The position numbers were made by a program, and so were the translations under genes. The notes beneath the pieces are model-generated. The model searched no databases. It saw only the letters and a program-made list of their open reading frames with translations, and was not told where the DNA came from. Below, piece after piece: positions 37,503-64,000 of a DNA stretch of 64,000 nucleotides. Within the stretch, counting starts at the first letter, position 1. Each line of letters opens with the position of its first letter. This DNA comes from Strigamia acuminata (lineage: Eukaryota): positions 26,412,001-26,476,000 of the forward strand of contig OX442314.1 in the NCBI GenBank assembly GCA_949358305.1, written 5' to 3'.

Positions 37503-37583
37503 CTTGAAATTTTCGGTCAAAATTCGGCGTGGTCGGCTTTACGATGCTGTTTTCTACTTATTTCTGTCCGGATTCACTGATTT

Positions 37584-37601
37584 TCCCGGGTTTCGGCACC
37601 A
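37584..37601 (-). promoter_or_regulatory. BEL primer-binding site complementary to tRNA-Phe
   Basis: The minus strand reads TGGTGCCGAAACCCGGGA directly after the 5' LTR; the plus strand TCCCGGGTTTCGGCACCA is the tRNA-Phe 3' end. Confidence 0.9.
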
Positions 37602-38779
37602 TGTGAAGATTCGCAAAGTCGATTTGTAACTAATTTTGACTAAAACTGTGTAAATTTACTACTTTTCTAACTTTTATGAATTCTCGAAATAAAGCATGTC
37701 TTTTTTGGGTTAAGAACAAGTTTATTGTAATTTCTGGGGGTCACAAGTACAAATTCAGGGGAACAAAGGGTGAAACAAGATAATTTATGACACTTTTACA
37801 GCACTTCCGGTCACGCGTCATTCAATATCACTCAAAAACACCTCCTGCAGGTTGGCTTCTCTGTGCTGCGCCGTGCTCTTTCCCTCGAACTCGTGCGACC
37901 TTGTTACTTCTAACAACGCCAGTTTTCACAGCGTTTAACTTACAACTAACAGTAAACCAAGCGGTTCATGATAAAGTCATTTATTATATATATTCTTATT
38001 TTTCTGAAAAGAGCATTTAGAAAGTCTATTTTCATCTACACAGAAAAATATAATTCATGACTTAAATTAGCTAAAATTAAGTTAAATTAGATACTTGCCC
38101 TATTCACATGCATAAAGTCAAAATTTTTCATTATGCTTGATTCCTCCCACAGTTGAGTGTAATTTGGAATATTAACTTTTAGATTGAAAAGTCCTTTCAG
38201 TGCTACCGCACAAGCTTGAAATTTAGATAGGGTGTTTTCAGGATTGTCAGGATTGTTTCCAATAAGAAGTCAAAGCCTTAGTATCCATTCCAGACAGCCC
38301 AAGAGCGGGAGAATTTAGTTCGGACGTCGGTCTAAATTCAATGTTGACTTTGTACGGGCCAGATAAGTAATATTGTATTCTTTCGTACGTCTGATAGCAG
38401 CAGACGGCAACGCAAATTGGAACAACAACCAACCATAGTACACGAAGTGACTGAGACTTCTGTTTGACTAATATCTTATCCAATATCGGTAAACATCTAT
38501 TCTCAGTTGACGTTGTAATTTCCGCTTGGCACAAACGTCTGACGCGTAATTTAGAAATTTTCATTTTGCAGGGTTTCACAGTTGACACCAGTTTTACAGA
38601 ATAAACTGATCTGTACTAAAAAAAAACCAACACTTTTTGATCAAAAATAATATTTTTCTTCCAAAACTTCTTTTTTGGAACACTATGTGTTGATGTTGAC
38701 GATACTGTATGTGTTTATGATGTAACTGTGTGTCGAAGGTACAACTGTAACTTATGTATGACGTTAAAGTGTGTTGATG

Positions 38780-42400: not shown

Positions 42401-45400
42401 TCACATTTTGTCAAAATGTTTCAAAATAATTCACATTTTGTCAAAATTTATCAAAATAATTCACATTTTGTCAAAATGTTTCAAAATAATTCACATTTTG
42501 TCAAAATGTTTCAAAATAATTCACATTTTGTCAAAATTTATCAAAATAATTCACATTTTGTCAAAATTTATCAAAATAATTCACATTTTGTCAAAATTTA
42601 TCAAAATAATTCACATTTTGTCAAAATGTTTCAAAATAATTCACATTTTGTCTAAATTTCTAAAAAAAAATCAAATTTTGTGTAGATTTATCAAAATAAT
42701 TAAAATTTTGTGTAGATTTATCAAAATAATTAAAATTTTGTGTAGATTTATCAAAATAATTAAAATTTTGTCTAAATTTATCAAAAAATTTCAAATTTTG
42801 TCTAAATTTATCAAAATAATTAAAATTTGATCCAAATTATTCAAATTTTATCTTAATTTTTAAAGAATTTTGTCATATTGAACAAACAATTATCAAATTC
42901 ACCCCAAATTAATTCTTAGGCTAGAGCCACCTGAATTTATAGCTGCTATAATAATTCCCATTCTTCAAAATACAAATTTTACAATTTTACAATTTTTTTC
43001 ACTTTTTTCCTTCAGAGACTCTCACATTTCTGATCCAGCAGAAAATTCAGATTCAACAGCTACCGACTCAAACAGCAATCCAAAACAACGCTACTCCATA
43101 ACCACTCATCCTAAACATCCAGCGATGTTTTACTCCGATGGATCCTCCATTATTTCCCTTTCGATGCCACCTGCAATTCAAAACGAAATTAGATTAATCG
43201 AGCATTTATTAACCACTAACAGTCACATTCCGGCTCGAATAACCAACCCAAAGGACAAAACCAAATTCAAACTGACAACATTAGGCAGCGAAGATTCATC
43301 GACTCGATCGGACAACATTCCTGAACAGGAATTTGCCAGTGTCAGGCGAATGTCGCACATATCAAATGTCACCGCGCCAATCACCGATTTACTGGCTAGT
43401 TTTGGTTTGCTCGCATCAACCCGCATGCCCTGGGATGAAAAAATGGAATTAATGTCGGTGGATACAGCGCGGAAACTGAATACAATTCTGGAAGATTTAT
43501 TTATTTACTCCGTTGGTAAATATAAATTAAAAAATTAATAAATTTAATAAATTTATTCTTTTTGATTGCAGGTGTTGACAAGAACTGGAAATTTCCAGTT
43601 GGGATCATTGATTCAATTATTTTGAAGTGTTTCAACACTCTTCGCTTCGATGTTCGGCACAATTTAATGGCGACCGGTCTCAAATTCTTGACGACTGTAA
43701 CAGATTTACTAATTAATAATGTAAGGACAATCACTGGAAAGCAGAGAATGCCATACCTGAATTGTGTGTATGAAATTATGGCCAATTCGGAACAACTTGT
43801 CAATGATATTTACGGCTGGACGTGCAAAAGTGATGCACAAACTCCATTTTCGTATCAAACATGTCAATTAATCACCACAAGCTTTGAAAATAAAGAGCTG
43901 GACTGCGGTTTCCAACACAGGTACTGGAAAAATGATAAATTTATTCATTTGTTTATTTATTTTCTTCGTGATTGTAGATTGAAACTGAAATGGAAAGAAT
44001 TATATAAAGTTTTACTGCAATGCTTTAGTCAAATTCAAAGAAAAAATGATGAAAACGATGAGAAAAAGTGTAAAGAATTGCTATGTAAAATTCAATTGAA
44101 ATTGCAGATCTCGAGATGCGGTTTTAAAAGGCGTAAAAAGAAACATGTCCCTGAAGGTAATTTCAGTTGTAAATGATCAAATTCAATTGATTTTGACTTC
44201 TTTTGCAGGTGTTTATAGTTTTCTCAATGGAAACTATCATTCAGCCATTTTGAGTTGGACTTTAGAAATGGACCAATTATTATCCAGTAAAATATAGTTG
44301 TTAAATAATGTTAGAAAAATGTGGATCAAAAACTGTCATTTTTTCCATTTAGGGAAAAATCTTCATGAGAAGGGAACGAAAAGACTGGAAGAAATTCTTC
44401 ATTGTATTTTACACGGTCTGCTCATTACTAATGACTTAGTCACCGTCTTCAAACTCATACAAAAACTTTTAAAGTTCCTACAATTTGAGTCGAGCTTTAA
44501 ACATATTTCTGCCATAAATTCCATTCTTTTAACATTTGCACGCCTCTTAGCTTCGTATTTAACCAACTGCAGCCCTAAAATTGCAAAATGTTCAAGTTTT
44601 ACGCTTAAATCGGCTAAAAATTCAGGTAAAACATGTATACTAACAATAAATTACCGCTAATCCAACTTTCTGCAGATATCTTTCAACTAATCTCGAGGGA
44701 AAGCATTCGGTCTGCCGTTACTAGCAATAATTTATCCAATTTCTGGTCGGCGGAAACAACTTGCGCTTTGTATATCTTCGTAGGCGCTTTCGCCGAAGCC
44801 GCCATTTTTGCTGACGTAATGGGTGATTGGAAAAGCACATTTTTATTGGCCGTTGCGCATTCCAAAATTGAAGTTTCAGCAAAAATGCATCCGGATATTC
44901 CAAATAATTTAAAATGTTGTGAATTAATGGTCAAGATGTTGAAGCAAATCATCGAGGCGAAAAATGAAGTCGTTGACACGGCGCTGTCCCGAACCGTCAC
45001 ACACACGTTACGAGACCACATAACCGCATCTGTATTGTGCGATATTAATGTGGTCCCGGTTTTATTAAACCATTTCACGGATCAACTGAAACATCTTCTT
45101 CGGCAGTTGCCTCTGGAAGTGCCGAAAGAATTCTATTTACCTTCGCCGCCAATTTTTTGTCCGCAAGATCAAATGGTAATTTCTACAATAAATAGAAAAT
45201 ATTTACAATATTAATATTTTTTTCCTTTTTAGACACTTTCAACCTCTGATGCAAAGATTGAAACTAAAATACGAAACGACCTGTCCAATTTAATCCATTC
45301 CTTTATGAATTTACTCACCGCGTGTAATACATTGCTGCCGACAGCGTACAAATACGCCAAAGATTTGCAAAGCTCAACGCTGGCCCACTCCTTCGCGGAT

Positions 45401-48400
45401 TACGACCATATAATCATGCCGGAACAAGATGAAACACTTGGTCAAATGTACACCGCTTTTCGAGACATTTGTTGTGTTATTTGGTTGCTTCATTCGAGAG
45501 ACAAATTCCAAATTGAATGGAGAAAGTTCTGGCGTATTTCGAGCGAGATGAAATTTTCCCAACCGAAATGCGATGCGCATTGTCTAACGGCTTTAATTTG
45601 GGTAAAAAGAATGAAACCCTTCACTGATTTAATGCAATGGAGTGTGGAATTTCATCAGGTGGTCTTGACCTTGGCAAGAGAAGCCACCCCGTCCACTCAA
45701 ATCATCGATGTTTTCGCTAGTTTGGTGCCGGATGTAAGCGCATTGCCTCTAGAATGCGAATCCAGGGCTAAACTATTGTTAAAAGAATGGGAAACTAATA
45801 AAGTTGGTGAGTTAAAATATATTTTTTTAAATAAATTTTTGTATGAATCTAATTTTGTGTTTTAAGATAAGAAAACTCCAAAGACAATGGTTGACTACTA
45901 CAGAGATTGTTGTGAGAACATTGGTATTATTGGAGAGAAAATGTTTGAATCCGAGTTAGGGGTTCATTCGAAACCGTTTGAAACTGACGACGATTTTCTG
46001 AATTGTGTGTGTTTATTCTACGACGTTGCCATTCACAAGCGCATGGAGGAGACGACTAATCTGACGTATAACGTTCCATTGGTTGTTTCTTACGCGGAGA
46101 AAGTCAAGAAAGTGGAATTCTCCAAGTATCGTCACATTCCGGAAGCGTGTGAAGCGAAAGAAATCCCTCGAAACCGAGATTTGGACAAACTGGACATCAA
46201 ATGCCGAAACCCTAGAAAGGGGTTTTTCCACACTTCAAGTCTTTTAGATCTGACCCAAAGTAACATCAGAGTCATTCCCAAACGAAGTCGGAGTTTGGAA
46301 ACCTTCAAAAGCAAAGATAAAAAAATGGCGTCCAACCTGCACAAAAAACCACATCCGAGCAAGATACCTGTCAGATCAATTCTAAACGAGCTTCAATCAA
46401 TATCTAAATGGAGAAAAGTTGAAGCGATTGATAAAACGCCTTTTTTGGACCATCTCGCTTTGTGGTTGGTCAAATGGAAAGGAAGAAATCACGCGATCAA
46501 AACACTAAACTGCGACAAGGAAATTCAACCACAGATCCACATAGACATGTCTGTGGATCAAATTTTAGCCAGTATTTCGAGGCTGGAATTGTATTCGAAG
46601 AACCCGCCAAGACAAAATGAGAAAACATCAATTGGAGTGCGAAAGCCACCAAAGTCGACTGAAAGGCTTCCAGAAGAATCTAATGGAGCAACCACAGAAA
46701 AGAAGAGTGAAGAGAACCTAATATTCTATGCGCGTGATTTAGCTAGTGTTACCCTACCAAACAGGTAAGTTACGGCTATAAACATTTACACTTTATAAAG
46801 TTAATTGTACCTTGTACATTCTCTCATGCATCAGGCACAGTTAGCATCAGGTTCAGGTATCCTTAAGGTGGAAACACAAGGGAGCGGGTAAAATTCCAAA
46901 GCTTGCTTTTACTTGAAAAAGCGGCTAAAAAGTCGCCTGCTTGAGCAAACACAAGCTTGTGTTTTCATTAGGTGCGTTCAATCTGCTAGTAGAAAGTCAC
47001 TTAACTGACTTAACTGCCTTTCAGAGGGCGGAAGTGACGATAATTACGTCACATTTTGACCAAGTAAAGTCACCTAAGTGACTTTCAGGAAAGTAACTGG
47101 AAAGTTCCTTTTCCACCTTTTAAAAGTCACTTATGTGCGTCTGCATGCGCATTGCACATTTAACAAAGCTACAGTGGCAGCCATTTTGTTCTCGATGAAC
47201 ACGGTAAATTCACACGTGTGGCACACGGTAAATGGAAATTTTGCTACAAATGAGCTGTGATTGGATGCGGGGAAAAAATGGCGCGGAAAAATAGAAATAT
47301 TTCCTATTTTTCCGCGCGATTTTTTTTGCAGCCAACTAGCTGTGACAATTCCACAGCATAAATGTTGGTTTTCGCCAAAAGCACGGATATTTCTTATTTT
47401 TGCCCATTTGTCGATAAACAGCATCAATTATTTTGTTCCTGGCCACTGTTTGAATGTACAAGTGCATTAAACAAAATGAAAACAATTTTACATGTTAGTT
47501 TTATTGTTATATAGTGACAAATTTGAAGATACTCATATTCATCCCACAGGATTGGATTCGCCGAAGCAATCACAAACTGTTTCAGGTCTGTGCTTGGTAA
47601 AACATTCGACAAACTCCGGACAAATCCAGCCTAAACTAATTCCTAGTAATCAAATATTTGACGTCACTTCGAGCAGTGATTCTGTTACGTCATCTCTCGA
47701 GGAAGATGATGACACCCTAAACGACATGAGCTTTCCAAACAGCCTTCCAGATCCACCGCCTAGGACCGTTCGCTTCAGCGAACCTCATCCGCCACCACTT
47801 CCCAACCCATGCATTCCCAAATTCCTCCGGCTGGTCGCCGAGAAAGAAAACTTTCAGACGAAATCCACTGATCCGAGACTGCGAGGTGGAGGATGCTACG
47901 GACAGATGCAATTTCCTCTACTAAGGGCTCCAGCTATTCAGAATTTCAATGTTGGTGCACCCCCTTGTTTGTCACATTGGGGATTACCTCTGCTCCGGCT
48001 TCCCCAAAAGTATTCGACCAATCAAGCACAGCAGTCATCTCCACCATGTCATGTGTGTGTGGATGTTAACCCTTGCAATCAAAATCTCTATGTTCAGAAT
48101 ATGTTGAGAAGTTATTGGATTAATGTGAAACAGAATAGATGTCAACAGATGGTGGATTATTCGCTCAATAGGAATTTGGTTGGTCATCAAACTATGGCAG
48201 CGGTAGAACCCCAAAGCGTAGATCAAATGCGGCTACTCAATGGGAAATATTCAAGCAGTGAAGACAATATTCACACCAAATATAACAAGCACGGATTGTC
48301 AAATCTTCCTGAACTAACGGAAGACACATCTGACATTAGCACACATTTGGAAGACCGGTACAGACAAATTCTTCAATCAGATTCAAGTTGTCAGCAAATA

Positions 48401-51400
48401 ATCCATTCTGCAAATGCATGTTCACCAACTAGAATACACAAAAGAAATAAGCCACAACCAAAAACGTTGAGTAGGGCTACTTCTCCAATTAGAATGCCTA
48501 CAAAAATGGTCACCAGGACTACTTCACCGGAGAAAATGGTCACCAGGACTACTTCACCAGAGAAAATAGTTACCAGGACTACTTCACCAGAGAAAATGGT
48601 TACCAGGACTACTTCACCAGTGAAAATAGTTACCAGGACTGCTTCACCAGTAAAAATGGTTACCAGGACTACTTCACCATATAAAATGTTGTTAAACAAA
48701 ACAACGTCACCAATAATGACATCTTCTGATGAAAGAACTTACAGCCCACCCATTTCTCCGCAAAGAACATTCAGTCCATCCTGTTCTCCCAGAAGAGTAT
48801 GTGGTCCACCACTGTCTCCGCAAAGAACATTCAGTCCACCCTGTTCTCCCAGAAGAGCATGTAGTCCACTATCTTCTCCTGAAAGAGTATCTAGTCCAAG
48901 GCACTCTCCTTTACGAGTATCTAGTCCAAGGCATTCTCCTTTAAGAGTATCTAGTCCAAGGCACTCTCCTTTAAGAGTATGTAATCCAAGGTCCACTCCG
49001 ATAAGAGTACCTAGTCCACCTAATTCCCCGAAAAGACCATTTAGTCCTCGCGCTAAAGCATCTTCAGTTGCCAAAAGTAAAAGCTTATCTTCAAGTAAAA
49101 TGAAGTCTACATATTATACAGGCAGAAGCAGAAGTCCTTCACCTACAAGAAGAAAACATTTAGTCCATTCTTGTAAAAGTTCTCTTTATTCTCCTTCGTA
49201 TGAAGAGATATGTTCACCACCGAAGAGTCCGAAGACTAGTTTTAGCAATCTTAGTTCCTACCCACAGACTGTAATAGAAGAAGATCAATATCTATGTAGC
49301 ATTTTGGATAAAAAATCATCCCTGGATTGTTATGCTGAGATTGATGACAAATTGAAGAGGTTAGTAGCATAACAGTCTTGTTATATACATAGCGACCAAA
49401 ATAATATTCAACTATGCTATAACAAAGATGAGTTATTCTGGTGGCTAGTGCTATTAACCTAACTATTATGGGTCTATTTTTTTTTAGAAAGTCAGACACA
49501 CAACCCAGAACTATTGAAACTCAAGTAAAGACATTATTTTCTGAATTATTTGCCTTCATAATGAATGCTTTTTTTTTCGTAGGTTGATAGTGACATTTTT
49601 CCACCGCAACCTCCAGTAAGATCATAAAAAGAATAATTTGAGAACAAAAAAGAAAGTAATTAAACTATTTTTAACAGAAAGAACAGAGGCTACCTTTTCA
49701 AGATATAAAGCACGGCTTACTGGATGTGGTCAATGAATTTGCGGAAACTCATCATCATGTAATAAATCAACTGGAGGAAGTTCGTGAACTAATGGTAACA
49801 CCGTAAACCTAAAAGAAAATTATTTTATGTAAAAAAAATTGTAAATCAAACAGAAAGAAATGAATAGACAGGATAAAGACAGAGCAATACAACAAACAGA
49901 TCAAAACATACCACCTTCAGGTAAATACCATACCACCTAACATTCATTTAACGAAGTGGCTACGTTCATGCCCGACATGAACAGAATGTCGCGTGTATTA
50001 CAGATCCCCAATGGATTTCAACCAATCATAGCGCATCATTAAAATAATACGTTTATGTCGGATGTGAACGTAGCCACTGCCTTCATTTAAACATTTCAAA
50101 TGATGTGTATACATGTTGCTAATGATTTACAGAAACAAATCAAATAGTTCTCTCTCAGTTGCAAGAAGTACACGACTTCATGGTAAAGATATTAACTATC
50201 AAATTTTATAATAAGTTGATAGACCAATAAATATCTTATTACAATACAGAAAGAAATGCGCCAAAATGATAAGAACTGCAGAGCAATAGACACCATTCAG
50301 ACCTCTCCGCCTTCAGGTTGCAACATTGAAGCCTGTTCTGATAATAAGAATTAACTATAAATATTTTTATAAATAATGCAGATGGTGCTTGCCACTTCAG
50401 TCCACTGCAGAACGGTCGCAAATCACTGCAGAATGAAATGTACCAACCAGATGAGTCAAGGCAACAACAAGAAGAATCTTCAGGTAAATATATTGGAAGT
50501 TAATAAAGTCGGATTTAGACTAAAGCCTGAAGCATGAGCTTAAATACAATAGTAGTTAGTTTCTACCACCTGTAACTGCTTGATATTTTGTAAGTAGAGC
50601 AATCACAATGCCTCGATGTTCCAAAGGCAAGTTTTGAGAATAGGAAAAGCCGACGACAAACTTGTCAAATCCCATCTCCGCCGAATGTCCCATCCGAACA
50701 TTCCTCTTGCACTGCACCTTTGTATGGTAAAAAGTATACAGACACAAAACACAATTGTCATCCAATCCGCAAACAACCAATTCCCGGCTTGGAAGGATAC
50801 GACCGTGCCGAAGAGTCGCCATCACGCGAAAGAAAATGCAAAATCAGAAAAGAAACAAACCCATACCACAATTATTCTCCACACAATTCTTGCATCCCAT
50901 GGGAGCCTCCAAGTGCAGATCTCTATGGAAGAATTCCAAGCGATAGTCCCAAGCGGGTTATCCAAACCGACTCAAACAGACGCAAGATTGAAAAGTGTCA
51001 AAGCCCTCCAAGTGTTAGCGGTCAAAGACCCACAATTTCAAAATACTACAATTATGTAGGAGAAAAAACGAGTGAAAATTGTTTGTCCCAGAGACCATGG
51101 GCACTCAAATCAACAGCCAATCACAGGTGCTTGAAAGTCCAAAATGTAAACAATTCAATCATTGCTGAAGAGAGTAGAAAAATCTGTTGTGACAATACAT
51201 ATTGTGTAACTAAAACATTTTCTCCAACACACTATGGCAAAACTAGCACAAGTACTAAGCAAACAATGCAAACCAGACCTTTGATCACTTCCCCATATTG
51301 TGCTTATTTGCAATGTGCATCTCCTCTGACTTGTCCTCAGACATCAACTTGTGCTGAATATGTTAGAAAGCAGAGAATATCACCTAGACCAAAGAGTTCA

Positions 51401-54400
51401 AGAATTAACCCATTTCTTATAGAAAATATAGCAGAAATGGACGAGGATAAGGAGAATGTGGTACAAATTTGTGACAAAAATTGGCACAGTACTTCAGCAA
51501 TTCCACCATCAGCAGACAAATGCATCCAAAGAAATCTAAGAAGTTGGAGCCATCATCTTTCAAACAAAACTGTTGGTATGTTTCAGTAACAAAATGCAAT
51601 CACAATTCATAAATCACTTAGCCGCAACCATCGCGCGTGCAATTACTGTATTACCCTGCTTTGGAGGGCATGTCCTAAAACCAGTCCCAATTTTCAAGGA
51701 AGAATTCGACTTTTATGGCGTGCAAAAAAAGTACCAGCCAATTAGATGTTGGGATCTGGTCAAACTCGCATTTTAGGGCATTTCCTCCAAAGCGGAGTAA
51801 TATGGTACAACTATGAATGAACAATCCATAGTTTAATGACCAACCAAATTCCTATTGAGCGAATAATCCATACGTATTGTAATTGAATCTGTTTATTAAT
51901 TTACAGAAAGGGAAACTAGTGGGGCTGACGAAGGGCGTACTGACAGTGCGAAAGCCGATATTGTTAAACCAGAAAATGATGAATTTATCAACATTCAAGG
52001 AGTTAAGAACTATGATTCTGGAATAGATGTTGAAGATGAGAAGAAATCAATACTGGATTTCCATATTCCTGATATTGCAGAGGATGTAACTATGGTATGT
52101 TGATTAGTTCCACAATTAAATAAAAAAAATTATTCTCTTTGATAGATATTTGAATTGGATGAAGTTGTGTTGATTAATGAGGTGCAGGAAGATAATAATC
52201 AGACTTTAAGCTACGAAGTTGATGATTTTGAAGAAAAGGATAAATCACAAACTCCACAAGTTAAAGCCAGAGATTCTCTCCACCTTAAACTAAAGACCAT
52301 TAAAGAGCAATGTGACTTGATGGATGCTATTTCAAACGAGTTACAAATAGATTTTGAAGACAGCAAACAGGTATGATGTAGCTAAAGCACAATTATCAAT
52401 TTCATTCACTGTTGAACAATTTTCGCTTTTCATTTTGGTTGGATCGAGTTTAACAAGTTATTACATCACTTAAGGCAATTGTCACTCGCCAATTACAGGT
52501 TAGAAATTTCAAATGAACCAATCAGAAGCTGCTACAATTATAAATCAACCAATCAGAAGCTGCTACATTTATAAATCAACCAATCAGATGCTAATAAATT
52601 TTTAAATTACTATGTAACGTTTTTTTCCAACTAACCAATGAAAAGCCACAAGTTTTTTAAGGTTTCCAATAGAAATCCAATATTTTTCTAAATAATATTT
52701 GGTAAAAAACTGTATTTTTTTAAAATCTTTTAAATTAAGACGCTAGAGGGAGTTTGGTTAGTAGTTGTCATGGAAACAAATTATAAATAAGACTGTGATA
52801 TGAACTTTACTTAAATTCCTACAAGATAATGAAATAAAATCAAATATTCCAAAATTTAAAAATGAAATCAAGACTTTCAACCGATATTTCCATACGCACG
52901 TGATAAAAATAGTTCAAATCTAAATTCGTGAGTTTTTACTCAAATAAATTAACTAACTTGTAAGGTACAGAGTCACAGAATAAATAAAGGTAAACAAAGT
53001 GTTGATGTACATTAATAGACATTACTTTTGCAGTTACTGAATTCGGTCGGCCAGTTAGCAGATAGTAATATGTTTCAGCCATCGCCAAGGAACCACCAGT
53101 AAGCAAATACTCGAGTATTTAAAATCATTTAACTAGTACAAATACCAACTTAAAAAACGCTTTTCAGTGTTGCAAAAACACTGAAATGTACCGGATTAAG
53201 TCTTTTTTTCTGTTTACGTAGAATTTACAGGTCCCCACGCTTAACTCTCAACCTAAATCCAAATGCTCAATTAGTCGTCCATCTGCCCAAATCCAAACCC
53301 AATTTGAGCTACAACAGTTACGCGCACGAATACACGAGAATTCACAGCTGCCACGCCAGAGATTACTCGCCAGCCCACAGCTGCCAAGCCAGAAATTACT
53401 CGCCAGACTACAGCTGTCAAAGCAAGGATTATTCGCCAGTGCACAGTTGTCAAAGCAAAGATTATTCGCCACTGCACAACTATCAAAGCAGATGTTTTAC
53501 GCCAATCAACAGCTGTCCGAGCAAACAGACTACGAGCTTGTCCAGTGACACGATCGAACACTTTCCAAGTCCAGCCACGTCGAAGAATGTCGCTTCGGTT
53601 CACAGTTCGGTGCATTCGAAGGAATGCCAGCACAACATGCATGTCAAAATGAGAATGCAGGATGCGTGTGAACTGATGAAAGAACTGCTTTCGTCGGACA
53701 CAAACGTTGCTAGTTCCGGCACCGAGCAGTTGGCACTTGCCGAAAACGCCAAGCCGAAGGAGATGAAGCAAATTCTCACAAAAATGGAAGAAACCTTGAA
53801 GAAGGATCTTTCCAAAATGGGAATTTATAAAGCTCCATATCTCCAGGCAAACAGCTGGGCAACTAATTCAAACGACAGCGCTCAGTTGTACAATACTGTG
53901 AAGGAAGACGGCAGAAGTCGGGATGCGGCAAGCAGCAGCCAAAACGGTCAGTATGGTCAGTATGGTCAGTTTGGGCAGCATGATGGCGACATGACGAAGC
54001 CCACGGTTCACCCTCTCCGCGATCTGTCAAAGACAAAAAAACTGAGTGACAGGTCAGCAAAAAATTTGAAATTCAACGACGTGTTGGTATCAAAAGAGCA
54101 GCAATTGGGCAACACGATGAAATCTAGAGACCCACAATTGGGCGACATGCCGAAATCTAGAGACCCGCAATTGATCGAAGTGTCGAAATCTAGAGACCCG
54201 CAATTGGATGACGTGTCGAAATCCAAAGACCTGAAATTAAGCGACACGTCGAAATCCAAAGACCCGCAAGTGGGCGACACGTCAAAATCAAGAAACCTGC
54301 AATTGGATGACATGTCGAAATCTAGAGACCTGAAAATGGGCGACACGTCGAAATCCAAAGACCGGAAATTAAGCGACACGTCGAAATCCAAAGACCTGCA

Positions 54401-55590
54401 AATGAATGATAAATCGAAATTAAAAGATTGGCAATTAAATGGCATGTCGAAATCAAAAGACCCGCAATTTGGCGACAATTCGAAATCAAAAGACCCGCAA
54501 TTTGGCGACAATTCGAAATCAAAAGACCCGCAATTTGGCGACAAGTCGAAACAAAAAGGTCCGCAATTGGGCGACACGTCGAAATCCAAAGACCCGCAAT
54601 TGGGCAACGCGTCGAAATCCAAAGACCCGCAATTGGGCGACACGTCGAAATCCAAAGACCCGCAATTGGGCAACGCGTCAAAATCAAAAGACCAGCAACT
54701 GGACGACACGTCAAAATCAAAAAACCTGCAACTGAATTTAAAGTCAAAACCAAAATACCAGCAAGCGCGCACCAACAATATTCCAAAGCCAAACACACGT
54801 GTGCCACGTGTGTCACGTGTTAATGACAAGCCAGTGTCAAATTTGCAACACCTACTGTCGCACTCTCATTTAGACACAGAAATAATGCATGGAGCTTCAC
54901 ATTTGAGCGAGCTAACCAAGTCTCGTAAACACTCTGCACCCAAAACAAAAATTTCGCATCCAAGTATCGCATCGATGGCCACAATCCAGCGTCCGAGCGT
55001 CAGCCAGAAGAAAATCTCATCCGTGTCAACTACTCAGCCTGACAAGTCGAATAAAATGGCGGACAAATCCGGTCAGCCGGAAAAATTTGGAAAGAAGAAG
55101 TCGCGGCGGAAACTGCGTTTGGCCAAAAAAGGATCGTTTGAACGCAATTCGTTTCACCCGCTCGAACCGAAGACGAGGATCAAATGGTTACATCAGCCAC
55201 TTCCGGTTCTAGTGCGCTCAAACAGAACGCAATTTTTGAGGGAGCAAGAAATGTTGAAGACTAAAGGTTTGAGCAATTATTATTATTCTTGTTTGCTCGT
55301 TTGTTACGTTTAATTTACTTACCAGCGACGTCAGGGGCCGTGCACCCGAAAGTCGGAGTTGTAGATTTGGTTGATAGTGCTGACAATATGGACCTACAAG
55401 GTAGATTTAAGTTTGATCTGATTTTTTGAGGATTTTCGAGTTTGATTGCCTTTTTATTGCAGAGGATGATGCGCCGTTGCAGAGTGAGTCTGAAAGGTTT
55501 TCTATCTCGACCACGAGCAGTCCGAGCACTTGGAACGTGCCGCGGGATGTGAGGGAAATTATTTATGGTGGAAATAATGATTCTAATTGA
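39444..55590 (+). CDS. CPLANE1: CPLANE1/JBTS17/C5orf42-like ciliogenesis protein, multi-exon (start approximate)
   Basis: Motifs recalled from vertebrate CPLANE1, in the same order: KKKPW (39890), DLVW...SRLGHP (41170-41250), DSTATDSNSNPKQRYSITTHPKHPAMFYSDG (43050-43140), EQCDLMDAISNELQIDF (52300-52356), and terminal STWNVPRDVREII with stop at 55588-55590. Introns are GT-AG. Confidence 0.75.
41447..42830. repeat. Intronic satellite, 30/40-bp units built from 10-bp subunits
   Basis: tcaaaattta-tcaaaataat-tcacattttg repeated ~40 times with variants. Confidence 0.97.
48500..49040 (+). repeat. Coding 30-bp tandem repeats (MVTRTTSPEK; RVSSPRHSPL)
   Basis: In-frame repeats within ORF 47492-49372. 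Confidence 0.9.
49951..50083. mobile_element. Intronic MITE (agtggctacgttca family)
   Basis: Same TIRs as 17277-17598. Confidence 0.75.
51643..51807. mobile_element. Intronic MITE
   Basis: tactgtattaccctgctttggagg / cctccaaagcggagtaatatggta imperfect TIRs. Confidence 0.65.
53320..54760 (+). repeat. Coding tandem repeats: 33-bp (HSCQSKDYSPV, 53320-53520) and 36-bp (SKSKDPQLGDT-type, ~54090-54760)
   Basis: In-frame repeats in ORF 53304-55313. Confidence 0.9.
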
Positions 55591-55677: not shown

Positions 55678-55717
<40 letters not shown>

Positions 55718-55722
<5 letters not shown>

Positions 55723-58700
55723 GGCGTAATAAGATGTTGGATGAATCCGGTATGGTCGGTAGGAAGAATGGGATTAGTTTGGGTTTTGCAGCCGCTGGTT
55801 TGAGGTGACTCTTTTTCTGAAAATGAAAGGAAGAAATTTAAATAAAATCGATTTTGTCAGCATCAGACAAAAAACAATCAACATTTTCAACATTTTCTTG
55901 AAATTTATCAGAAATTTCTCAATTTTCTCGACATTTACAAGAAATTTCTCAATTTACCCCACATTTATCCGAAATTTCTCAATTTTCTCGACATTTATCA
56001 GAAATTTCTCAATTTTCTCGCCATTTACAAGAAATTTCTCAATTTTCTCGACATTTACAAGAAATTTCTCAATTTTCTCGACAGTTATCAGAAATTTCTC
56101 AATTTTCCCCACATTTATCAGAATTTTCTCAAATTTCTCGACATTTATCAGAAATTTCTCAATTTTCCCCACATTTATCAGGAATTTCTCAAATTTCTCG
56201 ACATTTATCCGAAATTTCTCAAATTTCTCGACATTTATCAGAAATTTCTCAATTTTTCCTACATTTATCAGAAATTTCACAATTTTCTCGACATTTATCA
56301 GAAATTTCTCAATTTTCCCGACATTTATCAAAAATTTCTCAAATTTCTCGACATTTATCAAAAATTTCTCAAATTTCTCGACATTTATCAGAAATCAATT
56401 TATCAAAAATCAGAAAATCAGAAATTCAACATTACCTTTAACATCCTAATCCAAAATGAATTCGGCACATCAACAGTTTGAACCAAATCACTCCTCCTCT
56501 CTTCCAACTCCTCCAAAACAACTTCAGTTTCAACTTCCATCTCAACATTTTCCTCATCAGTCACGCAAGATTCAGACGACGGCAACTCTAACGTCGCAGG
56601 CCGAAAATCCTCCGACAAAGGCGGCAAAACCCCAATCCGCAATTTCTTTTTCCACAAATAAACACACAACTCGTCTACATGACACGTCGCGAGCGTAAAA
56701 TCTTTCCAAGACACAGACAAACTAATACACGGCGACGTAACGCAAAAACAGTCGATCAAAGCGCCGTTTTGCAAATCCCACGTGCGTATTGTCGAGTCCA
56801 TCGACGAACTGACCAACCAACGCGAATCCGGACTAAAACACTAAAAAAAAAAAAAAATAATTAACTCACAGCAAATAAACTCATCATTAACTATTCATTA
56901 CCGCATCTGTGATTCTATTCGTGTGTCCTTTGAACACTCTGGCCGCTTTTCGCGTACTTGTATCAAATATAAATACGCTGAAATTATCTAAAATACACGC
57001 GAGAAGCCCACTGAAATATTATTAAACGATTAATTAATTGTTTAATTAAATTTTACGTCGAAAAAAAATCCATACTTTTCTCTTTTGAGTACGAGTTTTG
57101 AAGCAGCGGCATCCAACGGCACGCTCTCGATCAATTCCTTCGTTTTAAATTTCCAATATTTCAATCTTGAGTCGATTCCGGCCGTAAAAGTCGTGTGGTT
57201 CAAGCCGTCGACAGCGACGCCGCTCACCGCCAACTTGTGGGCTCTCGGTACGCCGTACGTGCCTCGCCAAATGCCGGACTGGAGGTTAAAAACATCGACG
57301 TGTCCGCTATCGTACCCGATTATAACAAAATTACCGCAAGACGTCAACGTCACGCACTGGAAACACGAAATAAAATGAATTAAATACGTCTTCTGACGAA
57401 ACAAAATTAAATTCGCACCTTTGCAACGACTTTGAGATCCAATTTGAACCTGTCGTGCCTCAAATAATGCGCTCCCAATTTGCTCCTATGTGTCGACCAG
57501 GTGCTGGTTGTGGCGAATCCACGATGACACGCAACGACGTTGTCCCATTCACGTTCTCTCGTCGGCTCTGGAGAGCGAATTAATTAATTTTAATAATTAT
57601 TTGAGTCCGATTTAACTTACCGGCATCGAAACAAACTATACATGGCATTTTCAAATGCTCGTAGTGATGTTTTTTGTACGATTTCTGGTGCAACGACGCG
57701 GTTCCCAAGTTTTTATGTAAAAGATCGTTAATCGTGGAGAAGGATTTCAAAGTGCTGTCTTGTCCGGCGCTTAAAACGTCGTCCGCGTTGTTTCCGTAAA
57801 ATCGGATGAAGGTTGGCGGCGCGCTGTGTCCTTGTCGCAGCTTTAACACCCGCGCTCCGTCGGCGGATTGGTCGAAAATCCAGATTTTTAACGAATTGTC
57901 GGGCGACGAAGTGATGAGAAGAGGTTCTTCGGGTAAAAACTCCATTCCGGTCACGTACGTCGTGTGCGCGTCGCGAATCTGCGACACCAATTTCTTCTTT
58001 TCTAAATTCCATATCGCGATGTGACCGATGGGACTTCCCGTAGCCAATATCGGTTGTCCGTCTGATAATAAAATTTAATTAGATAAATTTTGTAATTTTA
58101 ATTTTTTTTTTTAATACCCGTTCTGAAGGCAATTGAGGTGACGGAGCCCCACTCCTGTTTGAATTTCATCAACGTTTTATCGTGTTCTAAATTGTGGATA
58201 ATTATTTCGCCGGACGTTAAACCGATTGCAACAACATCAACGGCCGTGGATTGTTGTATAACGGTTATCTCGGAGTCCCAGCCGTTGTACGAACGACTCA
58301 ATTGGCTGGTTTCTATGTTCCATAGTTGCATCTTTCCTTGTTTGCTGCCCAAGAGAATTTCGTCCAAATACGTGTTTGGATGCATTATGGCCGTTATTTC
58401 AAAATTCTTTTTGTCGATCGTCAACTCCAATTCCATTTCTAAATATAAAATAAATAAATAAATAAAATCATAAAATTGAAAAATTCGAAAAATTTGAACC
58501 TTTCGTGTCGATATTCCATTTTTTCACGTTATTTTCTTCGTTTACGGAGATTAAAAACGGTCCGAATGGCAACATAAGTCGGACATCACTGTCGTCTTCG
58601 TAAGTGTTTATCAACTGGTAATATATTTCATAATAATTTTAATTTACTTCATTTTATATTTCGTTTATTTTTAATACTTCGCATCCTCTTTTCCAAGAAC

Positions 58701-59026
58701 GAATCACGTTTTGACACCCGGTGTAAATCAAGTATTTATCCGTTGCGGTGCACGTAATATCGCACGGGTGGGATTCGGAGACGGACAATAGACGGAGTTT
58801 ACTGCACTAAAAATAAATAAATACAGAAATTTTTATATTAAATTTAAATTATGTAAAATATTCAATTTTTTTAAAATTTACTTACACCGTAAGTGTTGAA
58901 AACTTTTCCGACACAAGTCACGACTAAATTCTCGCCCCGTCTTTCAATATACCGTGTTCGTAACGGTATGTGATTTGCGACAGAGCCCAGGCTTTTATAA
59001 CCACAAAATATTTTACTGCCACTCAT
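55718..59026 (-). CDS. WDR36: WDR36/UTP21 (UTP-B subunit), ~10 exons, lacking the C-terminal domain
   Basis: MSGSKIFCGYKSLG; HPNTYLDEILLGSKQGKMQLWN; SIAFRTDG; SSPDNSLKIWIFD; RQGHSAPP; SSMDSTIRTWDL; ends KPKLIPFFLPTIPDSSNILLRH* (TAA at 55718-55720). Confidence 0.93.
55893..56392. repeat. Intronic 30-bp satellite (10-bp subunits)
   Basis: gaaatttctc-aattttctcg-acatttatca, ~16 copies. Confidence 0.95.
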
Positions 59027-59392
59027 GCCTGCGTTTATTTTATGAAGAAAAACTAAAATGTTAAGAAATTTACACTCTCCGCGACAGCATGGTTGATTCA
59101 AGCTTCTAGGTTTCGCCGCAACAAGCGCAAGAGCGCACCAGGAGTAAATAATGCATCTTCTACACTCACAAGTCAGTCGAAATATGTAAATTTAATTTGA
59201 AAATCTAATCCGAAAAAAGAAAAAAAGTTTTCAGCTGTGATTATCAGTGCATTTGCTTAGGTAGTTAATTCGACAAAAAAAGTCAAAGAATGGTTAATAT
59301 AATAATCGATGTAGCAGCTGCTTGATGCATTACACAAGCCTGGAGTGCGGAAGCCAATTTGAAATAAATTTTATTTTTATTTTATTACATTT

Positions 59393-59792
59393 TTATAGTA
59401 CAGGATTTATTATATACTTAATCAAACATAACGACTGATTGAATTGCTTCCTCAGTTTTTCCCATGATCCTTTGAGAGCCATTAAAAGGTTCTCAACAAC
59501 TGGCAGAACATCTTTGTCAGCCACAACACTGTTGCAAATGGCATCCCAATGAATCTAAGTCAAACGAATTAATTACGGTCAACCGAAAAATTCAACCAAA
59601 ATACACACAACAAAATTACCTGTAAAAATAACGCTAAATATGATTGTACGAGATTATAGCTCAAATTCGAATTGAGCGCAGCTGTAATAACTTTGAGAAA
59701 TTTAACTGCAGACACCCGCGATTCCATGCTCGTTACTGCGCTAACACCAACAGGCAAACTCGTTCTTTTTAATTCGTCAATTACTAATTGAT
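59393..59792 (-). CDS. Two exons encoding the Utp21/WDR36 C-terminal domain, apparently the terminal exons of the PWP2 transcript
   Basis: 59792-59620: YQLVIDELKRTS...FLKVITAALNSNLSYNLVQSYLALFLQ. 59554-59393: IHWDAI...SWEKLRKQFNQSLCLIKYIINPVL*. Canonical splice sites, AATAAA downstream. Confidence 0.85.
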
Positions 59793-62700
59793 CTACAAAA
59801 TATAATTAAAAAAAACATTATGAAAATGAAAAATTATCTTTTTAATGTATAAATCTGCATTAACAGTGACAAGAATCTTTTTAAAAAACCCAAAATGAAA
59901 CAAAAATGGATATTTTTGGTCCACAAAATGGTTCTTTTTTGGCCGAAATGGAACAAAAATGGACATTTTTGGCCCAAAATGCAACAAAAATGGACATTTT
60001 TGGCCCAAAATGCAACAAAAATAGACATTTTTGACCCAAAATTGAACAAAAATGGACATTTTTGACCCAAAAATAAACCAAAATGACTTTTGTATGTAAA
60101 ATAAATGAAATAATTGTCACTTAGTGCGATTAATTCTCACATTGATCATCCTCTACTTCCCGAATCAGCTTTTCCAAGTCGGAAAACTCGTACAAAACAC
60201 TGCACACATCCTCTAACGAATCTTCTTCCATCTTGTCCATCTTTTCAGCCTTTTCCCTATTTTCCCGCCTCAATTTCCCTTCCTTCAAGATGTATTCTAT
60301 CTTAAACTTACAGGTATCGCACCTAAAACCAAACATCAATTCAAAACCAACACATAATTAAAAATTCCTCGACTTACACTTCCAGGTAAAACGAATATTT
60401 TTCGTTCAGAACTTTCTGCAGCAGAAGATTCGTGGGTCGCGTGCTCACCGCCTGCGACGACATCGAGGCGGTGTGAGCAACGAGCATCGACGAAATCCAT
60501 TTAATACACAATCCCAAGTTTTGGCTCTTTTCCAAATACGACGCGAGGAATTTCAAAAACCGTTCCACGTATTTCACATCCAGAGACTGAGCATAGAACG
60601 GAACTAAAAACATACAAAATATAAACAAAAACTTTTCAATTCAATTTATATTTCTTCTTACTTTTATCCCCTGAAATTCTCTCGACAACTTCGACTATCA
60701 AATCCATTTCGTTTAACCGCAAAGCGTGAGTAATTGCGGTCGAAAAATCCCCCGTTGTTATTTTGTCTCGAATAGTGGCCGGGGTGATGTCAATTTCGAG
60801 TTCGAATGGATTAAAAACGTATGCGTCGTCCAGGGAATAGATCAAAAGTCCTTCGGTCGTCGTTGCCGCCCAACTGCGGCCTAAAAAACACGCAAAATTC
60901 GTTTAAAATATTTGAAAAAAAAAAAAATTAAATTTTCGTTTTTGTTAATATTCACCTGTCGGGGAGAATATTATACAGTTAACACGAACTTCCGGTTTAA
61001 ATGTACGGGAAGCCATGTCCCCTTTCGTGGCGCCAGGAAGCGTTAGAGCCGCGGGTTCGTCGTCGTCCGCGTCGTCACGTTTCTCCACGAGATTTAAATT
61101 CCCAAATTCCGCCATTTTTTTCCTCCGGATGAAATCCTAAACGACATTTAAAGGATTTAAATAAAATTCTCGTCAATCGAATCATCAATTCCTCACGTCC
61201 ATCCCATCGAACGAATGATTTTGCGAAATCTCGAATTTTTTAATCAAAATTTTGTCCGCGCAGCTGTAAATGCAAACGTTCTTCGATTGACCGGCCGCTA
61301 GAATGACCCCTCCGTCCGCCGAATAACAAATCGTAGAAAAAGCTCTGCAAAAAAATAATAAAAATTTAACAAAACAGACAAATAATAAATAAATGAAATA
61401 AAAATTTCTTACTTTCCCTTGAGAACTTTTTTCGGCGTAATTAAATCGGTGTCTCGTCTTCCACTACTTAGATCGTTGCGTCCTTCTATACTTCCGGTTT
61501 GATCGAGCGTTGGGATTTCGAAGAAGGTTATTTGCGCATCCAACGACGCTACGGCCAATTCTTTGCCGTCGGGCCGATACGCAACGGCGAGCACTGCAAA
61601 GATATTAAATGAATTATTTGAAATTTGATATAAAATTGTTAATAAATAATTTAATTGTACCGTCGGAAGTCATTGTGATAATTTCGCGGTTAGCTTTGTT
61701 CTCAAAGACATCCCAAAAGCGAACCGTTTTGTCCCAGGAACCGCTCGCCAGAACCGTTTGCGTCTGGCTGAACGCTAAACTGCTCACGGGACCCGAATGG
61801 CCGCTTAGAATCTGTCGTAAGTGAGGGAATTAGTTTTCTTAATTCAAAATTTATTTATTTTAAATAAATTACCTCCAACAAACGGCCATTTTTGACGGAC
61901 CACACAAATATTTCAAAACTGTCTTGCGCTCCTGCGCACACAAATTCGCCGCTGGAATCTATTGCGACGCACGAAAATTGCGTTATGTTTGATTCGTTCA
62001 TAAACGTACGAAAATTACGATATCTTAAATAAATAATTAATAAAAGTAAGTCAATTTTCATTAATTGTGTTTAAAATTGTATAATTTTGTGTAAAATTGT
62101 ATATTTTTGTCTATAATTTTATATTTTTGGTAAAATTGTATATTTTTTGTGCGTTTTCGACTACAAACTGCATTTTTAGCTTATAAAAAGCCTTTATGAG
62201 GTTATAAGCTGCATTTTCGTGATTAAAAACTGCATTTTCGTGATTAAAAACTGCATTTTCGTGATTAAAAACTGCATTTTCGTGATTAAAAACTGCATTT
62301 TCGTGATTAAAAACTGCATTTTCGTGATTAAAAACTGCATTTTCGTGATTAAAAACTGCATTTTCGTGATTAAAAACTGCATTTTCGTGATTAAAAACTG
62401 CATTTTCGTGATTAAAAACTGCATTTTCGTGATTAAAAACTGCATTTTCGTGATTAAAAACTGCATTTTCGTGATTAAAAACTGCATTTTCGTGATTAAA
62501 AACTGCATTTTCGTGATTAAAAACTGCATTTTCGTGATTAAAAACTGCATTTTCGTGATTAAAAACTGCATTTTCGTGATTAAAAACTGCATTTTCTTGC
62601 TTAAAAACTGCATTTTCGAGCTTAAAAATAATCTTTCGAGGATAAAAGTTATATTTTTAAGCATAAAGTTGCATTTTCGTGCTTAAAACCGACTTTTTAA

Positions 62701-64000
62701 GACATAAAATATATTTTCTCCGTAAAATTAACATTCCATTTTCCGACCCAAACGTACACACCTTTCAAAGTCAAACGCGCGTACAGTTCCATCCAAAGAA
62801 GACGACACAAGAAACTTGCCACTTTTACTAAAAGCAATCCCCGTGATGCTCGCCGCGTGTTCCGAAAACGTTTTAAAACACAATCCCGATGTCGTATCCC
62901 ACAATTTGACTTTGCTGTCGTCCCCGCCCGTCGCCAACCGCAGACCGTTGGGCGAATACGCCACACACCGCATGCAATTAACGTGTCCCTGTTGATTCAT
63001 CACGTACGACTCGCTCTGCCACTCCCAAACAACTAGTTGACCCAGAGTGGGACAAGCCAACGCGATCCAATCGCCGCTATTATTAATACAAATACTCGAG
63101 ATCATCAATTGATCTTCAATGCTAAAAAAAAAAATTAAAATTAAAAATTAATTTTCTTAAATGATAATCAAATTTCGCACCAGAACGCATAAAGTAATTT
63201 CACTTCCGGCATTTCGTGAAGGAAAAACGAGCCGTTTGAGAAGCCGCAAACGAGAATGTCCATCTTCTTGCTGTAATCGACGGCCGATAAATGAATATTC
63301 GCTCCTTGTTTACGGACCAAATCGCCCAAATAATGGCGCGCTTTTCTCTTGTAATTCACGTTTTCTATTTCGAATTCTTTGCCGTTGTTCTGGCTCAACT
63401 GCTCCTTGGTTTTCATTATCAATCCTTTGAAACCAGCGCTGCAAACCCACACGCACACTTGTCCGTTGCGACTGATGCTGTAGACCTGCAATTTAAAACA
63501 ATGTTTTTCTAATGGTAAGGACTGAATTTGGTGATTCTACGTACGTCCATTGAGTTTTTCTTAAAGAAACAACCCTTGATCGAGTCGGTGTGGCCGGCGA
63601 GAGTGATGCAAAGTGGGAAATTGATAAATTTCTCGATGGAATAAACTCGCGAAGTCATGTTTTTCGATCCGACGGCTAAAAACCTGATTTTAATCAATGT
63701 TAATTAATAATCAATGGATTTTTTCAATTTTAGATTTATTCGATTTACCTGGAGTCTGATGACCAATCGAGACTCACGGTGTCGTCGTAAAAGTCTTTGA
63801 TGATTCTATCTATTGTGAAATGCCCGTGGATATTGGGCGCTTTAAATACGGTCACGAAACTGTCTTTGGTAACTGCGTAGTACCTACGGATGAAAATAAA
63901 ATATTATGAAGGAATTTTATATATATTTATTAATTTCGCACCTTCCATCAGGACTGAATTGAATCGCGCGGATTTTCTTATTGAATCTGTGCGTGCCAAC
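59393..64000 (-). CDS. PWP2: PWP2/UTP1 (UTP-B subunit), multi-exon, 5' end outside window; probably extended by the Utp21 C-terminal domain
   Basis: GQLVVWEWQSESYVMNQQGH; ATGGDDSKVKLWD; SLDGTVRAFD..RYRNFRTF; SGSWDKTVR; IEGRNDL; FNPFELEIDITP; ALRLNE. The PWP2-homologous part ends in exon 60322-60141. Confidence 0.93.
59885..60085. repeat. Intronic ~31-bp minisatellite
   Basis: caaaaatggacatttttggcccaaaatgcaa, ~6 imperfect copies. Confidence 0.9.
62209..62595. repeat. Intronic perfect 21-bp tandem repeat
   Basis: ctgcattttcgtgattaaaaa, ~18 copies. Confidence 0.97.

What the first reader, a model, noticed from the sequence alone, without database searches (positions are those of the whole stretch)
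55718..60322. Domain transfer between neighbouring UTP-B genes: the WDR36/Utp21 C-terminal domain appears fused to the end of PWP2/Utp1
Seen: WDR36 (ATG 59026) terminates just after the conserved PFFLPTI motif (TAA 55718) and lacks its helical C-terminal domain. That domain (...QSYLALFLQIH...W..L...FNQSLC..., matching the WDR36 C-terminus as I recall it) sits UPSTREAM of the WDR36 start, at 59792-59393. The last PWP2 exon (60322-60141) ends in a GTGAGA donor in phase 1, and the acceptor at 59793 restores the frame (T+AT = Tyr): ...FSDLEKLIREVEDDQ-YQLVIDELK... The tail of that PWP2 exon already resembles the start of the Utp21 CTD. Known: in UTP-B the homologous CTDs of Utp1, Utp21, Utp12 and Utp13 form the tetramerisation core, with Utp1 and Utp21 as direct partners. 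Inference: this is a fission-fusion (permutation) in which PWP2 carries both CTDs in cis and WDR36 is a propeller-only subunit, rewiring an essential ribosome-biogenesis complex. I know of no described case.
Basis: partly seen in the sequence, partly recalled or inferred. Interest (0 to 1): 0.92.

Follow-up and report, generated by a model that had tools for sequence, protein, structure and literature searches.

The report
Centipede ribosome-factor domain moved between genes
In a centipede related to Strigamia maritima, the gene for the ribosome-assembly protein WDR36 stops before its last domain, and that domain sits at the end of the neighbouring partner gene PWP2, likely spliced into one protein with it, which would rewire a complex that is otherwise built the same way from yeast to humans.

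Summary
Confirmed, with one correction. WDR36 (59026-55718, minus strand, 729 aa) ends just after its PFFLPT motif. Its helical Utp21 C-terminal domain (CTD) lies upstream, in frame with PWP2. The centipede Strigamia maritima has the same pair of models: a 1006-aa PWP2 carrying Utp12- and Utp21-type CTDs with the same junction, and a 734-aa WDR36 with the same end. Single DNA contigs from three runs span the CTD and the WDR36 start; a spliced, RNA-like run shows the short WDR36 end and the splice between the CTD exons. Correction: the 60140-59793 intron is not the fusion point but an ancestral WDR36 intron (human intron 21, same codon and phase; also in other eukaryotes), so the break probably lies inside exon 60322-60141. 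WDR36 keeps a conserved tail, so it is not propeller-only. The PWP2-to-CTD splice is inferred, not seen in RNA, and a second WDR36 elsewhere could not be excluded. Likely working: PWP2 supplies both CTDs of the Utp1-Utp21 dimer in cis; WDR36 docks non-covalently. No description found in ten literature searches. New variant of a known kind.

The parts
60378..64000 (-). PWP2/Utp1, twelve exons in the window (gene starts beyond 64000): tandem WD40 propellers and the Utp12-family CTD
   Evidence: tblastn with S. maritima T1JPG3, 64-93% identity per exon block; Pfam Utp12 E 1.1e-11 on 60374-60640; open model
60141..60322 (-). Chimeric exon: end of PWP2 helix 7 and charged tail (to about 60220), then the first helix of the Utp21 CTD (about 60190-60141)
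   Evidence: PWP2 profile positive to T1JPG3 residue 869; helix-1 12-mer is the best WDR36-like 12-mer of the protein, 48 of 2000 shuffles reach it; model residue 171 aligns with yeast Utp21 809. Exact break inferred
59793..60140 (-). 348-nt phase-1 intron in a Tyr codon; same codon and phase as an ancestral WDR36 intron; holds a 31-nt tandem repeat (59936-60072)
   Evidence: human intron 21 after c.2518 = Tyr840; same column and phase in L066/L068 and L070/L071; donor rank 12 and acceptor rank 5 of 23 introns. Splicing inferred
59620..59792 (-). Utp21 CTD exon 1 (helices 2-5)
   Evidence: Pfam Utp21 125-163; 81% identity to T1JPG3
59393..59554 (-). Utp21 CTD exon 2 (helices 6-7) with stop; AATAAA at 59386 and 59375 behind it
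   Evidence: Pfam Utp21 164-208; 12-nt loose end in run X4 matches the upstream exon, i.e. spliced; phase-0 intron at the same place in L036, L066, L070; signals
59027..59392 (-). 366-nt spacer between the CTD stop and the WDR36 start: a tail-to-head join of the old WDR36 gene ends (inferred)
   Evidence: spanned by single contigs in X1, X2, X3; no similar sequence elsewhere in the window
56436..59026 (-). WDR36/Utp21 exons 1-9: two beta-propellers, wrap-around loop, acidic stretch and start of the linker motif
   Evidence: Pfam WDR36 propeller families E to 7e-43; 88% identity to S. maritima T1J751 over residues 1-650; introns spliced in X4
55718..55816 (-). WDR36 last exon: rest of the linker motif (PFFLPT) and stop; both species end in Arg-His-stop
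   Evidence: one X4 contig joins 56436 to this exon and runs to the A tract
55680..55719 (-). 40-nt A tract that begins inside the WDR36 stop codon
   Evidence: both flanks are present in X1-X3

Best explanation
WDR36 here ends before its C-terminal helical domain, and that domain is encoded in frame behind PWP2, so PWP2 is likely made as one chain carrying both the Utp1 and the Utp21 tetramerisation domains, while the shortened WDR36 would dock on it without a covalent link. Shown: gene order, open frames, origin of the moved domain, the same two models in S. maritima, spliced short WDR36 end, spliced CTD exons. Inferred, origin: one permutation of the WDR36 locus (tandem duplication with reciprocal loss, or a circle reopened in the disordered linker) put the 3' part of WDR36, with helix 1 and two of its own introns, behind the charged tail of PWP2. 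Inferred, function: the two CTDs, normally a Utp1-Utp21 heterodimer, pair within one chain through a linker of about 20 residues and bind the Utp12-Utp13 dimer as before; the WDR36 propellers still bind Utp18/Utp6 and are held by contact with the first PWP2 propeller, helped by the retained tail, and by the pre-rRNA scaffold.
For: Independent species: T1JPG3 has Pfam Utp12 at 743-848 and Utp21 at 855-1000 (63 bits, cut-off 30.8); T1J751 is 734 aa without Utp21 domain. Between the species the moved domain is 73% identical, PWP2's own CTD 75%, the chimeric exon 64-65%, with no stop or frameshift. Order CTD-then-WDR36 lies on single contigs in three DNA-like runs of two studies. X4 joins 56436 to 55816 and CTD exon 1 to exon 2. 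The junction intron matches human WDR36 intron 21 in codon and phase; 3 of 6 other human positions also match window introns; same intron in 4 of 13 tested loci, two distinct sequences. The only in-frame Met in CTD exon 1 (59727) is Leu in S. maritima. AlphaFold2 of T1JPG3 708-1006 gives two helical domains, pLDDT 81, pTM 0.71, flexible linker, aligning to Utp1 716-856 (Z 19.6, rmsd 2.5, 140 aligned) and Utp21 809-939 (Z 12.8, rmsd 3.0, 125 aligned). Yeast: Utp21 propellers without CTD bind Utp18; Utp1 K27 crosslinks to Utp21 K730, which lies in the retained motif (PMC3897721 passages).
Against: The PWP2-to-CTD splice is inferred; unspliced read-through gives a stop at 60130 and a normal-length PWP2. 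T1JPG3 is a gene model, and chimeric models are common in invertebrate annotations, S. maritima's included (PMC12220653 passages). PWP2 and the CTD are not on one contig in any run: two X3 contigs overlap by 35 nt inside the 31-nt repeat. No genome was held, so a second, whole WDR36 is not excluded. Helix-1 similarity is modest (score 4.3 and 3.8 against a family median of 11.6; a natural PWP2 tail reaches 3.9), so the break may lie in the intron instead. In yeast and Chaetomium the isolated Utp1, Utp21 and Utp18 propellers showed no detectable binding (PMC5009746 passages), and the linker motif has decayed here (33% against 59-70% in other animals), so how WDR36 is held is the weakest step. 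The model's in-cis packing was not inspected (no coordinates), and its alignment held WDR36 rows.
Confidence: 0.85

Rival explanations
1. Three-way split: PWP2 ends at TAA 60130, the CTD exons form their own small gene, and the S. maritima fusion is a chimeric annotation.
For: An in-frame stop lies 8 nt into the intron; chimeric models are frequent (PMC12220653); the CTD exons are transcribed and spliced.
Against: No conserved start: the Met at 59727 is not in S. maritima and would drop two helices; upstream ATGs lie in or beside the intron's repeat with poor donors. The intron is an ancestral one with ordinary splice sites. The helix upstream of it is conserved and in register. No AATAAA on the sense strand of the intron, two right after the CTD stop.
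Confidence: 0.06
2. A whole WDR36 exists elsewhere; these pieces are left-overs or specialised duplicates.
For: No genome to search; only 120 of 181 hits were listed.
Against: Both pieces are intact and conserved in two species; only one S. maritima WDR36 is among the 120 listed; both CTD searches return only T1JPG3 (word-limited); the pieces are complementary without overlap; no second similar contig shows among the listed pieces (table cut).
Confidence: 0.05
3. RNA-level repair: trans- or back-splicing joins the WDR36 5' part to the upstream CTD exons and restores a normal WDR36.
For: The layout is a circular permutation of one gene, with both parts 366 nt apart.
Against: The last WDR36 donor (56435) is phase 0, the acceptors at 60323 and 59793 are phase 2 and 1; the last exon has no donor behind PFFLPT; the X4 contig splices 56436 to the stop-bearing exon.
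Confidence: 0.02
4. Misassembly.
For: Repeats flank both breakpoints; no contig bridges the A tract or the 31-nt repeat.
Against: Single contigs span CTD to WDR36 exons in three runs, one from a different study with about 2% other letters; an independent assembly of another species gives the same two proteins.
Confidence: 0.01

Closest known systems
UTP-B core of the SSU processome (Utp1/PWP2, Utp21/WDR36, Utp12, Utp13; PDB 5ICA; PMC5009746)
   Same: Both CTDs of the Utp1-Utp21 dimer and both propeller pairs are present and predicted to keep their folds.
   Different: The Utp21 CTD is on the PWP2 chain; WDR36 has no CTD. In 114 of 119 other WDR36 proteins the match reaches the CTD, and in 51 of 51 loci with a CTD hit it lies downstream in the same gene.
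S. maritima UniProt models T1JPG3 ('Uncharacterized protein') and T1J751 ('WDR36/Utp21 N-terminal domain-containing protein')
   Same: Orthologues with the same junction and the same end.
   Different: They sit in the database without comment; 82-88% identity in the propellers shows another species.
Gene fission and fusion that redraw subunit boundaries, e.g. split mitochondrial cox2 (PMC5374615, listing and abstract start only); fused or split RNA polymerase and type II topoisomerase subunits (recalled)
   Same: Domains stay in the complex while the chain boundaries move.
   Different: Here a cut in one subunit is coupled to fusion of the cut piece onto its paralogous binding partner, in a nuclear, intron-rich animal gene pair, and it removes the link by which the cut subunit normally joins the complex.
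Tandem duplication with reciprocal loss, and relocation through circular DNA (recalled)
   Same: Both give a tail-to-head permuted gene, as seen here.
   Different: The two routes leave the same sequence; neither was shown.

Membership tests
WDR36/Utp21 | Two WDR36-type beta-propellers | tested here: met
   Pfam PF25171 and PF25168 above their cut-offs on single exons
WDR36/Utp21 | Linker motif ending in PFFLP | tested here: met
   present but decayed, 33% mean identity
WDR36/Utp21 | Helical CTD on the same chain | tested here: not met
   HMM match ends at 735 of 890 in both species; stop-bearing exon spliced in X4
PWP2/Utp1 | Tandem propellers plus Utp12-family CTD | tested here: met
   T1JPG3 2-873 against human PWP2, E 6e-273; Pfam Utp12
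PWP2/Utp1 | Chain ends in a short charged tail after the CTD | tested here: not met
   gene models of both species go on into a second CTD; median tail elsewhere 20 residues, and none of the 150 listed hits carries a Utp21 CTD behind a Utp1 CTD. Rests on the inferred splice
Utp21 CTD (moved piece) | Sequence, introns and fold of the WDR36 CTD rather than of another UTP-B CTD | tested here: met
   Pfam Utp21 63 bits; 57 bits against 5.8 for PWP2's own CTD; both introns at WDR36 positions; fold match Z 12.8, near the level helical bundles can reach by chance
True gene fusion | One transcript across the junction | tested here: inconclusive
   not decided by the runs laid; see Tried and rejected
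True gene fusion | Conserved in an independent genome | tested here: met
   S. maritima T1JPG3 and T1J751
True gene fusion | No intact copy of the donor gene elsewhere | not testable with these tools
   no genome held; indirect hints only
Functional UTP-B complex | CTD heterotetramer with Utp12 and Utp13; hexamer with Utp18 and Utp6 | not testable with these tools
   partner genes not in the window; biochemistry needed

The most novel reading that the evidence does not exclude
The transfer splits UTP-B into two modules that load separately: a core of PWP2 (with both CTDs), Utp12 and Utp13, and an arm of shortened WDR36, Utp18 and Utp6. The CTD is the only strong link of Utp21 to the core in yeast, and Utp21 is what brings Utp18 and Utp6, so these centipedes would assemble the SSU processome without a pre-formed UTP-B hexamer, after a single permutation event that moved an oligomerisation domain from one paralogous subunit to its partner.
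Probability: 0.35. Interest if true: 0.85.

Novelty: new variant of a known kind. Interest (0 to 1): 0.7.

Why it matters
UTP-B is essential and is described as a tetramer of four propeller-plus-CTD chains. An animal lineage in which one CTD has changed chains is a natural experiment: it says the covalent propeller-CTD link of Utp21 can be given up, and it names the construct that tests this in yeast (Utp1 with the Utp21 CTD appended, plus Utp21 cut after its PFFL motif). It is a clear case of a subunit boundary moving inside a conserved eukaryotic machine, with the donor gene's introns carried along as a tracer. It is also a rare genomic change that could mark a centipede clade, and a warning that filters for chimeric or truncated gene models would discard both of these genes as errors.

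Tried and rejected
No RNA holder was listed for the stretch; X4 is read as RNA only from its GT-AG joints. X4 has no cover over 59626-60381, so the PWP2-to-CTD junction could not be tested; X1 and X2 have no cover over 60193-60570 (filter or gap). No contig bridges the A tract. Complex prediction of the WDR36 tail (T1J751 678-734) with the two CTDs: no answer, score 0.00, alignments not used, controls not folded; it is no evidence either way and may have been aimed at the wrong surface. First AlphaFold2 run (PWP2-only alignment) left the second CTD at pLDDT about 50. Mixed PWP2/WDR36 alignments mostly put the CTDs on the wrong half; one correct but shallow and noisy alignment was used. Position-wise profile test is unreliable for helix 1 (misaligned columns) and was replaced. 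The automatic intron search gave false long joins in 9 of 13 loci. Other fused proteins: none (32 candidates; 789 candidates) or among the best 150 of 398 representatives; T1JPG3 is itself not a representative, so fusions can hide inside clusters. Atlas search returned only UTP CTD clusters. Rejected: duplication of PWP2's own CTD; the A tract as the cause of truncation (S. maritima ends the same way); a retrocopy (introns present). Literature searches gave no description of this arrangement; subscription papers and bioRxiv supplements were not searchable. Earlier-findings look-ups were empty. The neighbouring plus-strand gene could not be named.
Full report
What is in the sequence. On the minus strand the window holds, in this order, the 3' part of PWP2, two exons of a Utp21-type C-terminal domain (CTD), a 366-nt spacer, and WDR36. 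Built by coordinates, WDR36 has ten exons and an open frame of 729 aa from ATG 59026 to TAA 55718; PWP2 reads open for 923 aa through the phase-1 join 60141/59792 to the stop at 59393. Pfam Utp21 falls in three pieces: positions 29-54 on the last WDR36 exon, 125-163 and 164-208 on the two upstream exons. An HMM built from 90 full-length WDR36 proteins (of 119 held) covers the window WDR36 at 4-735 and the PWP2 tail at 748-887 (57 bits), while PWP2's own CTD scores 5.8 bits. The two parts are complementary.

Independent species. The CTD exon finds one protein among 32 candidates: Strigamia maritima T1JPG3, 1006 aa, 81% identical. The best hit of a WDR36 exon is S. maritima T1J751, 734 aa, without Utp21 domain, ending like the window protein in Arg-His-stop. 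The window therefore comes from a close relative of this geophilomorph centipede (inference from 82-88% identity in the propellers). Identity between the two species is 75% in PWP2's CTD, 64-65% in the chimeric exon and 73% in the moved CTD: the moved piece is kept intact like the rest.

The normal state. Of 119 other WDR36 proteins, 114 match into the CTD; of the five that do not, two are fragments whose clusters hold full-length members and three are vertebrate models that leave the family at columns 778-780. The millipede Chamberlinius protein is whole, and so is the unnamed protein P0003, which a quick tree places next to the Strigamia pair (support 94, not starred; stem of the pair 0.6). 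In 80 metagenome loci, 51 have a CTD hit and all 51 lie downstream on the same strand; 29 have none, many cut by contig ends. None of the best 150 of 398 representatives carries both CTDs.

Reads. Single contigs run from WDR36 exons across the spacer into the CTD exons in X1, X2 and X3; X3 is from another study and differs at about 2 letters in 100. X1 or X2 may be the window's source. The PWP2 side is on a second X3 contig that overlaps the first by 35 nt within the intron's repeat, so that link rests on the window and on the S. maritima model. X4 shows joints at GT-AG introns and is read as RNA: one 426-nt contig joins 56436 to the last WDR36 exon and runs to the A tract, and a 12-nt loose end joins the two CTD exons. 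The PWP2-to-CTD splice remains an inference.

Where the break is. It is older. The split Tyr aligns with column 779, which is Tyr840 of human WDR36 (counted from the alignment). SNP rs2290680 is listed as IVS21+60 in PMC2664842 (table passage) and under c.2518 in PMC2765470 (table passage, where the extracted text shows a minus sign); together these put human intron 21 after c.2518, phase 1 of codon 840. I recalled this variant name first and then checked it. As a control, 3 of 6 other human positions from the same tables match window introns in codon and phase. In fetched loci the same phase-1 intron at column 779 is the best join in 4 of 13 tested (two distinct sequences) and is visible by eye in L051; the second CTD intron (phase 0) recurs in L036, L066 and L070. 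The three vertebrate models break off at the same place. So at least the acceptor came with the domain. The donor side probably did too: the 12-mer upstream, at the expected distance, is the most helix-1-like stretch of the protein (0 of 58 blocks and 48 of 2000 shuffles reach it; 1 of 64 and 64 of 2000 in S. maritima), though the score is low, and the predicted model aligns from this helix on with yeast Utp21 809-939. I place the break at about 60220-60190, in the charged tail of PWP2 and the disordered linker of WDR36, the least constrained spot in each. The intron's splice sites are ordinary for these genes (ranks 12 and 5 of 23), it has no sense AATAAA, and two follow the CTD stop.

How it arose (inferred). 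The order 3' part, spacer, 5' part is a circular permutation of WDR36. Tandem duplication with reciprocal loss, or a DNA circle reopened in the linker, both give it (models recalled, not from a call). The first is simplest if PWP2 already stood upstream. That could not be tested in centipedes; one of 80 loci (L060) has PWP2 and UTP21 in the same orientation with one helicase gene between them and no fusion, which shows only that such linkage occurs.

How it likely works. In the solved core the four CTDs form a dimer of dimers, Utp1 with Utp21 and Utp12 with Utp13, through their last helices (PMC5009746, sections 14 and 15 and passages). Fusing the two partners keeps their ratio and needs only a linker. 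AlphaFold2 on T1JPG3 708-1006 gives two helical domains at mean pLDDT 81 and pTM 0.71 with a low-confidence linker of about 20 residues; they align to Utp1 (Z 19.6) and Utp21 (Z 12.8, near the level that helical bundles reach by chance). I could not inspect whether they pack as the natural dimer. The shortened WDR36 keeps what binds Utp18: in yeast the propellers without CTD do so (PMC3897721, passages). It needs a new route to the core. In the 90S particle the Utp18, Utp21 and Utp1 propellers form one group and Utp21 touches Utp10 and the U3-5' ETS helix (PMC5354517, passages), and Utp1 K27 crosslinks to Utp21 K730, inside the motif that the centipede gene retains. I commit to docking on the first PWP2 propeller, aided by the tail and the RNA scaffold. 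Against it, isolated propellers did not bind detectably and the motif has decayed to 33% identity. Since Utp21/Utp1 bridge the Utp6/Utp18 and Utp12/Utp13 pairs (PMC4931317, passages), the bolder reading is that UTP-B falls into two modules here.

Novelty. Both S. maritima models are public but unremarked. Ten searches found no description; the library lacks most subscription journals. Moving subunit boundaries is a known kind of event, but I found no case in UTP-B. Verdict: real; new variant of a known kind; confidence 0.85; interest 0.7.

Noticed in passing
L060 5442-12466: In a GC-rich, intron-free eukaryotic locus (fungus-like by my reading, untested), PWP2, a DEAD-box rRNA helicase (HAS1-like, label recalled) and UTP21 stand side by side; PWP2 and UTP21 point the same way and are not fused. 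A small ribosome-biogenesis cluster, 1 of 80 loci.
   Followed up: partly
window 40221-55590 (+): A long multi-exon gene converges on WDR36; its apparent stop (55590) lies about 130 nt from the WDR36 stop, with the A tract between. No Pfam hit. It recalls the ciliogenesis gene CPLANE1 (from memory, untested) and has a 33-nt coding repeat of 19.5 copies at 54089-54731.
   Followed up: partly
window 55680-55719: 40-nt A tract starting inside the WDR36 stop codon, the only such run in 64 kb; it looks like a poly(A) tail written into the genome or a shared 3' end of two convergent genes.
   Followed up: partly
window 14174-21196 and 26856-38615 (-): Two tandem copies of a DEG/ENaC (amiloride-sensitive channel) gene; the second is interrupted by a long BEL/Pao-like retroelement at about 32300-37540 (label from its open frames).
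   Followed up: no
window 2642-11987 (+): Gypsy-like retroelement with open gag (705 aa) and pol (1435 aa) frames, followed by a 555-aa frame without Pfam match.
   Followed up: no
window 41476-42861, 55892-56395, 59936-60072, 62202-62628: The long introns of otherwise compact genes (53-79 nt) are those that carry AT-rich tandem arrays; the array in the last WDR36 intron resembles the one at 41.5-42.8 kb (about 68%).
   Followed up: no
window 59792-59700 (-): The moved CTD has lost the family's conserved 'E.RSL' helix-loop pattern and is shorter there in both species; the Utp21 CTD contacts Pno1 in yeast (PMC5354517), so a partner surface may have changed.
   Followed up: no
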